Positions 23,374 to 24,486 of a DNA stretch of 64,000 nucleotides are shown here, one piece after another (the first letter of the stretch is position 1; each line of letters begins with the position of its first letter). Made by a program: the position numbers and the translations under genes. The notes under the pieces were generated by a model. The model did no database searches, was not told where the DNA came from, and saw nothing but the letters and a program-made list of their open reading frames with translations. Where the stretch lies: the NCBI GenBank assembly GCA_965249135.1, contig OZ252220.1, positions 1,632,001-1,696,000 of the forward strand, in the 5' to 3' direction. The stretch is from Alphaproteobacteria bacterium (GTDB taxonomy: Bacteria > Pseudomonadota > Alphaproteobacteria > GCA-2746255).

Positions 23374-24486
23374 CTATTTCTTCTTCTTGCGAACCTTACG
23401 CAGGGTTTTCCGCTTGGCGGTTTTCCGCTTCGCAGTTTTCCGCTTCGCGGTCTTCCGCTTCGCGGTCTTCCGCTTCGCAGTTTTCCGCTTCGCGGTCTTC
23501 CGCTTCGCGGTCTTCTTTCTAGCCTTTCTTTTGGCTGCCATCATACCCTCCGTAATTTCTATGAGGCCACGTACGGCCTCGACAGATTTCAGAAACATTT
23601 TCTTTTCGCCGGCGTTGAGCGTTATTTCGATAATTCGCTCCACTCCCTTACCGCCTATTACGACTGGGACTCCAACGTAGAGTCCGTCAATGCCGTATTC
23701 CCCATTCAGCTGTGCTGCGCAGGGGAACACGCGCTTCCTATCCCTGAGATATGCTTCGGCCATTGCGATGGCCGATGATGCGGGCGCGTAGAAAGCGGAC
23801 CCCGTCTTCAGGAGTCCGACAATTTCAGCCCCGCCATTTCTTGTTCGTTCAACGATGCGGTCGATACGCGCTCGGGTCGTCCATCTCATCTTGATGAGAT
23901 CCGGGAGTGGTATTCCCGCGACCGTTGAATAACGTATCAACGGAACCATCGTGTCTCCGTGCCCACCAAGAACGAAGGCGGAGACATCCTCGACCGAAAC
24001 TTTGAACTCTTCGGCGAGGAAATAGCGAAAGCGGGCAGAATCCAATACACCCGCCATTCCAACGACCTTCTCGGGTGGAAGGCCGCTTACCTTCTGCATC
24101 AGCCAAACCATCGCATCGAGTGGATTGGTGATAACGATGACGAAGGCTTCCGGACAGTGTCGTTTAATTCCCTGAGCGACGGTTGAAATGATCTTTGCGT
24201 TTATCTGGATAAGATCATCCCGGCTCATGCTCGGCTTGCGGGCAATCCCCGCCGTAACGATGACGACGTCTGAATCGGCGATCGCTTTGTAATTCTTTGT
24301 ACCGACGAGAACGGCGTCGAAGCCCTCAACTGGAGAGGACTGGGCAAGGTCCAAAGACTTGCCTTTAGGCACACCTTCCACGATGTCGAAGAGCACGATG
24401 TCGCCAAGCTGCTTGAGCCCGGCAAGGTGGGCAAGTGTGCCGCCTATATTACCAGCACCAATGAGTGCGATTTTGTTACGTGTCAT
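23374..24486 (-). CDS. mdh: Malate dehydrogenase (LDH-like) with polybasic C-terminal extension
   Basis: [11 protein letters not shown], RKPx[36 protein letters not shown] at 24486; 370 aa. Confidence 0.96.
23404..23508. repeat. 15-nt tandem repeat x7 encoding (AKRKT)7 in mdh
   Basis: Plus strand units RGT-YTT-CCG-CTT-SGC; all differences are at third codon positions. Confidence 0.97.

What the first reader, a model, noticed from the sequence alone, without database searches (positions are those of the whole stretch)
23374..23538. Malate dehydrogenase fused to a histone H1/HctB-like polybasic tail
Seen: after the normal Mdh C-terminal helix the frame continues for 54 aa, [10 protein letters not shown](AKRKT)7LRKVRKKKK, with 34 Lys/Arg and no acidic residue. 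The seven 15-nt units differ only at synonymous positions (ACC/ACT, AAA/AAG, GCC/GCG), which argues for protein-level selection and against an assembly loop. Known: alphaproteobacterial Mdh is about 320 aa and LDH-like Mdh is tetrameric; Lys/Ala-rich repeat tails bind or condense DNA in chlamydial HctB, mycobacterial HupB and Pseudomonas AlgP. Inference: a TCA enzyme displaying four polycationic arms could moonlight as a nucleoid or RNA-binding protein, dock on polyphosphate or anionic membranes, or form condensates, linking NADH/oxaloacetate status to nucleic acids. This is my best candidate for an undescribed system here, together with the flanking elements and the nadAC insertion.
Basis: partly seen in the sequence, partly recalled or inferred. 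Interest (0 to 1): 0.8.

Follow-up and report, generated by a model that had tools for sequence, protein, structure and literature searches.

The report
Malate dehydrogenase with polybasic repeat tail
The only malate dehydrogenase of this uncultured alphaproteobacterium really ends in a 54-residue tail made almost entirely of lysine and arginine, kept in every related species, which most likely sticks the enzyme to DNA or RNA, although no binding has been tested.

Summary
The mdh gene (window 24486..23374, minus strand) encodes an intact LDH-like malate dehydrogenase of 316 residues. It runs on in frame for 54 residues, [10 protein letters not shown](AKRKT)7LRKVRKKKK, with 34 Lys/Arg and no acidic residue. 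The seven 15-nt units differ only at synonymous sites.

The tail is not an artefact. All 6 of 6 species of the genus carry it, at 54 to about 145 residues and always in the K/R frame. Near-identical strains differ in copy number. Within the genus the regular array sits on Mdh alone.

Six of 101 other alphaproteobacterial Mdh loci carry different basic tails, and the tree requires at least two independent origins. This is the genome's only Mdh, and no Mqo was found.

The complete genome has no ppk1 or ppk2, which weakens the polyphosphate idea. No histone H1 or Hc2 model matches, so the likeness to those proteins is in composition only.

My best reading is an electrostatic tether to nucleic acid, selected but loosely constrained in length. 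Binding is untested. This is a new variant of a known kind. The scan has noted similar tails on other enzymes in other genomes.

The parts
23374..24486 (-). mdh coding sequence, 370 codons plus TAG stop (23374-23376)
   Evidence: ORF and translation. TIGR01763 MalateDH_bact scores 431 bits against a cut-off of 352, and NF004863 scores 468 bits.
23539..24486 (-). Mdh catalytic core, residues 1-316 (Ldh_1_N plus Ldh_1_C)
   Evidence: Pfam. PDB 4ros E 4.7e-152 over residues 1-313. R83, R89, D149, R152 and H176 are invariant in 64 sequences. AlphaFold2 mean pLDDT 93.6.
23377..23538 (-). Polybasic C-terminal tail, residues 317-370, net charge about +33
   Evidence: No Pfam or NCBIfam family matches it. 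AlphaFold2 draws it as a continuation of the last helix, H292-369.
23404..23515 (-). 15-nt tandem array. The seven AKRKT units occupy 23404-23508; TRF counts 7.5 copies because the ARKKT codons follow.
   Evidence: TRF; units differ at synonymous sites only. Copy number differs between strains and species.
23254..23288 (-). Terminator-like stem-loop (15 pairs, then TCCTTGGTTT) in the 207-nt spacer between mdh and sucC
   Evidence: This is a consensus scan only: 1 site found against 2.4 expected in shuffles, so it is weak.
21997..23166 (-). sucC, the downstream neighbour. It starts the sucCD-sucA genes that follow in the window.
   Evidence: [12 protein letters not shown] start; sucC is found beside mdh in 93 of 110 loci.
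24675..25508 (-). nadC, the upstream neighbour (context only; no evidence that it belongs to the feature)
   Evidence: ORF; nadC is adjacent to mdh in all six species of the genus and in L050.

Best explanation
The gene encodes the cell's single, catalytically intact LDH-like malate dehydrogenase. Its last helix is extended by a lineage-specific polycationic tail of about +33 charges per subunit. If the enzyme is a tetramer like its solved relatives, that gives four such arms. The tail arose and keeps changing length by slippage of a 15-nt unit. Selection keeps it in the Lys/Arg frame and free of acidic residues. It most likely does not take part in catalysis. It most likely acts as a sequence-independent electrostatic tether that holds Mdh on a cellular polyanion, most probably nucleic acid (nucleoid DNA, or ribosomal and other RNA). 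This is how lysine-repeat tails work on AlgP/PhaF, topoisomerase I and HU-type proteins. Shown here: the tail is real, conserved, under compositional constraint, specific to Mdh within the genus and recurrent in other lineages. Inferred: that it is present in the mature protein, that it binds a polyanion, and that the polyanion is nucleic acid.
For: (1) The tail is present in 6 of 6 species of the genus. Cores are 83-90% identical and tails run 54 to about 145 aa past the EG.M junction, always in the K/R frame with no stop at the canonical Mdh end. (2) Metagenome proteins 97-98% identical to this one are 396-413 aa long, so the array is a length-variable, in-frame repeat. (3) Unit-to-unit mismatches in the six tails fall at codon position 3 in 245 of 497 cases, against 126 each at positions 1 and 2. 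Within this window's seven units all differences are synonymous. (4) No D/E occurs in the tails beyond the junction Glu. (5) The Mdh core of the genus has net charge +1 to +6, against a mean of -6.6 (sd 5.2) in 95 untailed relatives. The neighbouring SucC barely shifts (-6 to -9 against a mean of -10.6, sd 5.7), which points to an Mdh-specific move towards a basic surface. (6) Convergence: 6 of 101 non-genus loci have unrelated basic tails of 23-78 aa, and further ones turn up in protein searches (P0018, P0019, P0020, P0076, P0115). On the quick tree the trait needs 8 changes, and strongly supported branches force at least 2. (7) Within the genus the regular array is on Mdh alone. Only weak matches appear, in open frames of 564-881 aa in G003-G005 that were not identified. 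Other Lys-rich tails in this genome sit mostly on nucleic-acid or ribosome proteins: TopA, RNase R, L21, L19, trigger factor, XseA and Smr. (8) It is the only Mdh and no Mqo was found, so the tailed protein must carry the TCA step. (9) No ppk1 or ppk2 was found, which removes the main alternative polyanion. (10) Literature passages: lysine-rich low-complexity regions of prokaryotes are enriched in DNA- and RNA-binding proteins (PMC6821194), and the AlgP/PhaF KPAA tails bind DNA and tether granules to the nucleoid (PMC9239181). (11) A contig from an RNA library covers the core-tail junction, 23488-23656. This is only a weak hint of transcription through the junction.
Against: No binding, localisation or proteomic datum exists. 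The partner is inferred from composition and analogy only. Tail length varies almost threefold among species and by tens of residues among strains, so any constraint is loose. The extreme C-terminus is not conserved (…RKVRKKKK here, …RKVRSPA in close strains). AlphaFold2 draws the tail as one long helix with pLDDT 81-94 rather than as disordered. This may be overconfident for a polycation, and few alignment rows cover the tail. Untailed E. coli Mdh, which belongs to another Mdh subfamily, gave only weak iCLIP signals (PMC10380284 passages). All six frames of the repeat are largely open, so openness alone is not evidence. The charge comparison used a single control gene.
Confidence: 0.45

Rival explanations
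1. This is a nearly neutral slippage product. A slippery 15-nt unit expanded after the stop codon was lost, and the tail is tolerated on an abundant soluble enzyme without any specific partner. At most it adds solubility as an entropic bristle.
For: Copy number differs among strains and species, and the C-terminal end differs through a 19-nt indel. Relatives end exactly at …KG[LM]M where this protein continues …EGMM-AAKRK, which fits a simple stop loss. No known domain matches the tail.
Against: The tail is retained in 6 of 6 species at 83-90% core identity, always in the K/R frame, although the other frames are also open. Mismatches are in excess at third positions. There are no acidic residues. 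The Mdh core has shifted towards positive charge in parallel. Different basic tails have arisen independently on Mdh in other lineages.
Confidence: 0.2
2. The tail is a tether to anionic membrane lipids. It would hold Mdh at the inner face of the cytoplasmic membrane, near succinate dehydrogenase, the respiratory chain or dicarboxylate transporters.
For: Polybasic stretches are known to bind acidic phospholipids (established knowledge, not tested here). The TCA context next to sucCDAB is seen.
Against: The tail has no hydrophobic or aromatic anchor residues; its composition is K, R, A and T only. The other Lys-rich tails in this genome sit mostly on nucleic-acid or ribosome proteins, not on membrane-associated ones. 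Nothing tested here favours membrane over nucleic acid.
Confidence: 0.15
3. The tail is an electrostatic metabolon arm. It would dock on acidic surfaces of partner TCA enzymes such as citrate synthase, or guide the dianions malate and oxaloacetate and so improve channelling.
For: Electrostatic channelling between Mdh and citrate synthase is an established concept (recalled, not searched). The tailed protein is the only Mdh.
Against: A genome scan for acid-rich segments gave 18 hits, which I did not identify one by one. None lies at the end of a frame of about citrate-synthase size (about 430 aa, a figure recalled). One was at the C-terminal end of a short 195-aa frame (260106-260690). A tail of 54-145 residues with variable length is a poor fit for a specific docking surface.
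Confidence: 0.08
4. The tail is a polyphosphate-granule anchor, as proposed for AlgP.
For: AlgP localises to polyP granules and needs its Lys-rich repeat domain for granule spacing (PMC9239181 passages).
Against: No PPK1 (PF02503) and no PPK2 (PF03976) match was found in the single-contig, 98.75%-complete genome. The same searches ring in 7 and 8 of 14 control genomes.
Confidence: 0.03
5. The tail is an assembly or annotation artefact, and the repeat is non-coding DNA downstream of a normal mdh.
For: No single public-run contig spans the array. All six frames of the repeat are largely open.
Against: There is no stop at the canonical end in any of 6 species or in 8 metagenome proteins. Contigs of run X1 tile 23150-24600 with no differences, including the junction. 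Independent assemblies agree on the frame.
Confidence: 0.02

Closest known systems
Canonical LDH-like (tetrameric-type) bacterial malate dehydrogenase, e.g. PDB 4ros (320 aa) and 3gvh (324 aa)
   Same: The core matches at E 4.7e-152 over residues 1-313. It has the same two domains and the invariant catalytic residues, and the mdh-sucC gene order is the same.
   Different: These proteins end a few residues after the last helix. This one adds 54 residues of net charge about +33. None of the 60 best PDB sequences shown aligns past residue 317.
KPAA-repeat C-terminal domains of Pseudomonas AlgP and PhaF (histone-H1-like tails)
   Same: Both are tandem short Lys/Ala-rich repeats at a C-terminus that vary in length. 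In those proteins the tail binds DNA and tethers a cargo to the nucleoid (PMC9239181 passages).
   Different: The unit here is the pentapeptide AKRKT, with Arg and Thr and no Pro. The cargo is a central metabolic enzyme rather than a granule protein. There is no sequence homology, and this genome has no polyP kinase.
C-terminal lysine repeats of actinobacterial topoisomerase I (Streptomyces, Mycobacterium) and Lys-rich tails of HU/HupB
   Same: A Lys-rich repetitive tail is appended to a folded protein and is said to stabilise DNA binding. This was seen as reference 92 and in passages of PMC6821194. This genome's own TopA also ends in KKKT-type repeats.
   Different: Those hosts are DNA enzymes whose substrate is the polyanion. 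Mdh has no known nucleic-acid substrate.
Chlamydial histone-like protein Hc2/HctB (Pfam PF07382)
   Same: It shares Lys/Arg/Ala-rich pentapeptide-like repeats. One congeneric metagenome Mdh (P0009) carries a precomputed PF07382 hit.
   Different: No PF07382 hit was found for this protein, for its tail alone or for the 152-aa tail region of L002. Hc2 is a stand-alone nucleoid protein, not an enzyme fusion.
Polybasic tails on other enzymes noted by this scan (e1-1505875 ATP-grasp ligase; e1-2868872 CheW), and (AKRKT)n-like tails on adenylate kinases of gammaproteobacterial MAGs (P0011, P0014, P0025)
   Same: All are acid-free Lys-rich repeat tails on housekeeping proteins that vary in length and are lineage-specific.
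   Different: The host proteins and lineages differ. None has been tested experimentally, so they are parallels and not explanations.

Membership tests
LDH-like bacterial malate dehydrogenase (TIGR01763 MalateDH_bact / NF004863) | Score above the curated cut-off of the equivalog model | tested here: met
   TIGR01763 scores 431.4 bits (cut-off 351.85) and NF004863 scores 467.9 bits (cut-off 283). The L-LDH model TIGR01771 scores 237 bits, below its cut-off of 303.55.
LDH-like bacterial malate dehydrogenase (TIGR01763 MalateDH_bact / NF004863) | Ldh_1_N NAD-binding domain followed by Ldh_1_C | tested here: met
   PF00056 at residues 5-143 (E 1.5e-38) and PF02866 at 148-307 (E 2.2e-32).
LDH-like bacterial malate dehydrogenase (TIGR01763 MalateDH_bact / NF004863) | Substrate and catalytic residues: Arg for oxaloacetate specificity, second loop Arg, the Asp-His pair, substrate Arg | tested here: met
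   R83, R89, D149, R152 and H176 are present and invariant in 64 aligned Mdh sequences. The assignment of roles, and the LDH numbering 102/109/168/171/195, are recalled and come from no call.
LDH-like bacterial malate dehydrogenase (TIGR01763 MalateDH_bact / NF004863) | Usual length of about 310-330 aa, ending shortly after the last helix | tested here: not met
   This protein is 370 aa. In 95 of 101 non-genus loci, 21 or fewer residues follow the core. PDB relatives are 308-334 aa. This is the point of the finding and does not argue against membership.
LDH-like bacterial malate dehydrogenase (TIGR01763 MalateDH_bact / NF004863) | Homotetramer | not testable with these tools
   Four copies total 1480 residues, which exceeds the 1000-residue limit of the complex tool. 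Not attempted.
Chlamydial Hc2/HctB (PF07382) | Match to the family model | tested here: not met
   no hit at E up to 1 for the whole protein, for the 54-aa tail or for the 152-aa tail region of L002. Only P0009 carries a precomputed PF07382 label.
Linker histone H1 | Winged-helix globular domain (Pfam linker_histone) | tested here: not met
   One search lists only Ldh_1_N, Ldh_1_C and a sub-threshold Glyco_hydro_4 hit.
Linker histone H1 | Lys/Ala/Pro-rich intrinsically disordered C-terminal domain | tested here: inconclusive
   The tail is Lys/Arg/Ala/Thr-rich and acid-free but has no proline. AlphaFold2 draws it as a helix with pLDDT 81-94, which neither proves nor excludes disorder in solution.
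AlgP/PhaF KPAA-repeat domain | Tandem KPAA-type tetrapeptides | tested here: not met
   The unit is the pentapeptide AKRKT with a 15-nt period.
AlgP/PhaF KPAA-repeat domain | DNA binding by the repeat domain | not testable with these tools
   Needs EMSA or localisation experiments.

The most novel reading that the evidence does not exclude
The tailed Mdh tetramer is a genuine nucleoid- or ribosome-associated protein. Its four cationic arms would cross-link or condense nucleic acid, so that a TCA-cycle enzyme doubles as an architectural or condensate-forming factor. Its occupancy could respond to NADH or oxaloacetate state. This would be a free-living alphaproteobacterial counterpart of the metabolic enzymes found in yeast mitochondrial nucleoids (aconitase, Ilv5). 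It would have been invented repeatedly on Mdh, and in other lineages on adenylate kinase.
Probability: 0.12. Interest if true: 0.8.

Novelty: new variant of a known kind. Interest (0 to 1): 0.5.

Why it matters
Lysine-repeat tails are well known on proteins whose job is nucleic acid. A conserved one on the only malate dehydrogenase of a whole bacterial lineage is different, especially with independent re-inventions on Mdh elsewhere and look-alike tails on adenylate kinases. It suggests that some bacteria deliberately park core metabolic enzymes on a polyanionic surface. That gives a clean test case: one gene with a removable tail, for asking whether bacteria organise central metabolism in space by simple electrostatics. 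It is also a practical warning. The array breaks short-read assemblies, and trypsin would cut the tail into fragments too short to detect, so such tails are easy to miss.

Tried and rejected
(1) The first AlphaFold2 run used an 11-row alignment and gave mean pLDDT 48.8. I discarded it and repeated with 64 rows.

(2) Apparent tblastn matches to the tail in L057, L063, L066, L067, L095, L096, L108 and L116 turned out to be Arg-rich out-of-frame readings of sucC or spacer DNA. There is no separate polybasic ORF downstream of mdh in those genomes.

(3) The search of 1.84 billion representatives was of little use for mapping tails. At 50% clustering the alphaproteobacterial Mdh collapse into a few rows. 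It added only P0115 and P0076 as further basic-tailed forms, and several long hits are frameshifted gene calls.

(4) The first genome scan for K/R-rich windows was swamped by Arg-rich out-of-frame ORFs of this 60% GC genome. I replaced it with a Lys-weighted scan.

(5) The N-terminal basic stretches in the open frames of PdhA, the PNP-family protein, aconitase and the S49 peptidase may lie upstream of the true starts. I did not count them.

(6) Laying public-run contigs could not count repeat units, because contigs break at the array. The holes in RNA-run cover say nothing.

(7) The acid-rich-tail scan for a complementary partner gave 18 segments, which I did not identify one by one.

(8) Literature: six full-text searches found no paper describing a malate dehydrogenase with a lysine-rich or polybasic extension. 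The one paper holding all four terms concerns phosphoglycerate kinase; I saw only the listing and the start of its abstract. Supplementary File 1 of PMC6821194 lists LCR-containing proteins and could name such Mdh proteins, but supplements were closed.

(9) I did not use complex prediction. Four chains exceed its size limit, and no partner protein is proposed.

Full report
**What is there**

On the minus strand of the window an ORF runs from 24570 to 23374. The start that matches relatives is the ATG at 24486 ([10 protein letters not shown]; relatives begin [10 protein letters not shown]). It gives a 370-residue protein, P0001. Pfam finds the two lactate/malate dehydrogenase domains at residues 5-143 and 148-307.

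NCBIfam places the protein above the curated cut-off of the bacterial malate dehydrogenase equivalog TIGR01763 (431 bits against 352). It falls below the cut-off of the L-LDH model. The closest solved structure is the 320-residue Mdh 4ros, at E 4.7e-152 over residues 1-313. None of the 60 best PDB sequences shown aligns past residue 317. R83, R89, D149, R152 and H176 are invariant in a 64-sequence alignment. Their catalytic roles are recalled knowledge.

After …[12 protein letters not shown] the frame continues with [10 protein letters not shown](AKRKT)7LRKVRKKKK and a TAG stop. Tandem Repeats Finder reports a 15-nt array at 23404-23515, with 7.5 copies and no indels. Read directly, the seven units differ only by GCC/GCG, AAA/AAG and ACC/ACT.

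**Is the tail real and translated?**

The window lies in a single-contig genome of 2.12 Mb, 60.3% GC and 98.75% completeness. All five other species of the same genus have Mdh with the same kind of tail. There are no other genomes of its family or order among the 40 relatives sampled. Total protein lengths are 387 to 461 aa and cores are 83-90% identical. One of them, L003, runs off its contig inside the array.

Metagenome proteins 97-98% identical to this one are 396, 403, 406 and 413 aa long. Copy number therefore changes between close strains, always by whole codons (units of 15 or 12 nt). None of these sequences has a stop at the canonical Mdh end.

All six frames of the repeat DNA are largely open, so openness alone proves little. 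What counts is that every lineage stays in the Lys/Arg frame. Unit-to-unit mismatches in the six tails also fall at third codon positions in 245 of 497 cases, against 126 each at positions 1 and 2.

Contigs of the best-holding public run tile 23150-24600 without a single difference, including the core-tail junction, but they break inside the array. The number seven is therefore not independently confirmed. A contig from a metatranscriptome library covers 23488-23656, across the junction. This is only a weak hint of transcription.

A close strain carries 19 extra bases behind 23402. Read on the coding strand, these would give the …RRKVRSPA end seen in P0002, P0004, P0006 and P0007. The extreme C-terminus is thus not conserved, but it stays basic.

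**How special is it?**

A search of the whole genome with the 54-residue tail finds only mdh. In the five congeners the strong matches are again all in mdh. The only others are weak matches in open frames of 564-881 aa in G003-G005, which I did not identify.

A Lys-weighted scan of all open frames, followed by Pfam, shows other Lys-rich ends in this genome. They sit on topoisomerase I, RNase R, ribosomal proteins L21 and L19, trigger factor, exonuclease VII large subunit and an Smr protein. Shorter ones sit on GlmU and a class IV aminotransferase. Most of these hosts handle nucleic acid or the ribosome. Mdh is the only one with a regular array.

The genome has one Mdh match and no malate:quinone oxidoreductase, so the tailed protein must do the TCA-cycle step.

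**Distribution beyond the genus**

I extracted the Mdh ORF from 109 of 110 loci (L100 gave none). L047 and L048 are the same records as L002 and L003. Among the 101 non-genus loci, 95 have at most 21 residues after the core, and these are not basic.

Six loci have basic tails unrelated in sequence to AKRKT:
- L109: 78 aa, K/A-rich.
- L009: 44 aa.
- L080: 39 aa, Arg-rich.
- L007: 37 aa.
- L019: 28 aa.
- L012: 23 aa.

Four of these six lie in the taxonomically chosen sample of 24 non-genus loci. Two lie among the 77 nearest-sequence loci.

Protein searches add more cases. P0018 is 412 aa with KKRPVKRKTAA-type repeats. P0019 and P0020, P0076 and the distant P0115 also have basic tails.

I built a quick maximum-likelihood tree of 114 cores. 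I left out L047 and L048, and the careful search did not finish. The genus forms one clade of 10 rows, all tailed, with SH-aLRT 99. The trait needs 8 changes on that tree, and strongly supported branches alone force at least 2. For example, L109 is sister to the untailed L110 and L113 with support 98. Polybasic tails have therefore been added to this enzyme repeatedly.

Several relatives end exactly at …KG[LM]M, where this protein reads …EGMM and goes on. That fits loss of a stop followed by repeat expansion. No separate polybasic gene lies downstream in those genomes.

The tail-region search also returned adenylate kinases of about 370-410 aa from gammaproteobacterial metagenome bins with (AKRKT/AKKKT)n ends. 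It returned a CBS-domain protein, an endonuclease-family protein and small transcription regulators as well.

**What it most likely does**

The tail has no family match. It weakly resembles only the C-terminal end of a valine-tRNA ligase model, at E 0.01 and far below the cut-off.

With a 64-row alignment AlphaFold2 models the core at high confidence, with mean pLDDT 93.6. It draws residues 292-369 as one uninterrupted helix projecting from the last Mdh helix, with pLDDT 94 falling to 81. I treat the helix with caution. Few rows cover the tail, and an isolated polycation is unlikely to be helical without a counter-ion. It does suggest that the tail points away from the body of the enzyme.

The tail does not compensate for an acidic core. 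The Mdh core of the genus has net charge +1 to +6, against -6.6 ± 5.2 in 95 untailed relatives. The adjacent SucC is barely shifted, at -6 to -9 against -10.6 ± 5.7 in 67 relatives. This is one control gene, so the evidence is modest.

The genome has three HU/IHF-family genes. It has no PPK1 and no PPK2, while the same searches ring in 7 and 8 of 14 control genomes. That weakens polyphosphate as the partner.

Passages I read in PMC6821194 state that lysine-rich low-complexity regions of prokaryotes are enriched in DNA- and RNA-binding proteins, and that eukaryotic metabolic proteins are depleted of such regions. Passages in PMC9239181 describe the AlgP and PhaF KPAA domains as DNA-binding tethers to the nucleoid. 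PMC10380284 lists Mdh and adenylate kinase among candidate RNA-binding enzymes, on the basis of eukaryotic data. It reports only weak iCLIP signals for untailed E. coli Mdh.

Taken together, my best reading is a selected but loosely constrained electrostatic tether of an otherwise ordinary Mdh to nucleic acid (confidence 0.45). The rivals are:
- A near-neutral slippage product (0.2).
- A tether to anionic membrane lipids (0.15).
- An electrostatic metabolon arm (0.08).
- A polyphosphate-granule anchor (0.03).
- An assembly or annotation artefact (0.02).

**Comparison with what is known, and novelty**

The protein is a member of the LDH-like bacterial Mdh family. The tail works like the lysine-repeat tails of AlgP/PhaF, actinobacterial topoisomerase I or Hc2. 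It is not a member of any of those families, because model matches and repeat type were tested and not met.

Six full-text searches found no description of a polybasic or lysine-rich extension on a malate dehydrogenase. Supplementary tables that might list one were closed.

The scan itself has noted the same kind of thing on other DNA: a polybasic tail on an ATP-grasp enzyme (e1-1505875) and on CheW (e1-2868872). I did not test those notes.

I rate this a new variant of a known kind, of moderate interest. It is a clear, conserved and recurrent case on a textbook enzyme, but there is no functional evidence yet.

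Noticed in passing
window 24675-26557 (nadC, nadA) and 26662-27903 (AFG1/ZapE-like ATPase): nadC-nadA lie between the zapE-like gene and mdh. 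nadC is adjacent to mdh in all six species of the genus and in L050. zapE was found within the flanks of 40 of the 110 loci. The insertion is therefore genus-wide, and I found no link to the tail.
   Followed up: partly
proteins P0011, P0014, P0025 (and P0012, P0015-P0017, P0021): Adenylate kinases of about 370-410 aa, one labelled as from a gammaproteobacterial MAG, end in long (AKRKT/AKKKT)n arrays after a Ser/Thr/Glu-rich linker. This is a second housekeeping enzyme with the same tail type.
   Followed up: no
G000:C1:86612-88081 (L037) and 484346-485257 (L041): GlmU ends in …AKRKTKTAGRKKKKKG, and a class IV aminotransferase has a KKLKANKKRRKK stretch near its C-terminus. These are two more metabolic enzymes with short basic ends in this genome.
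   Followed up: partly
window 23378-23407: A close strain (run X4) carries 19 extra bases behind 23402. These would give the …RRKVRSPA end seen in P0002, P0004, P0006 and P0007, instead of …LRKVRKKKK here. The difference looks like a deletion between short direct repeats.
   Followed up: partly
G000:C1:1221700-1222500 (L044): A repeat region reads as (RKKGQ)n in one frame and (RKDKG)n in another. I fetched it but did not analyse it.
   Followed up: no
L050: This contig is labelled as a Terriglobia (Acidobacteriota) MAG. It carries an alphaproteobacterial-type Mdh (73% identity) with the nadC-mdh-sucC order of this genus, so it may be a mis-binned contig or a transfer.
   Followed up: no
window 23000-24600, public runs: Runs filed under seven different coded organism labels (A-G, 7 studies) hold half or more of the sampled words of this stretch. 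The bacterium or very close strains thus recur in sequencing of several different labelled sources. I did not pursue this further.
   Followed up: no
window 23387-23680, plus strand: An antisense open frame of 97 aa reads (FRFAV)n across the array. It is an automatic by-product of the repeat, and nothing suggests that it is a gene.
   Followed up: no
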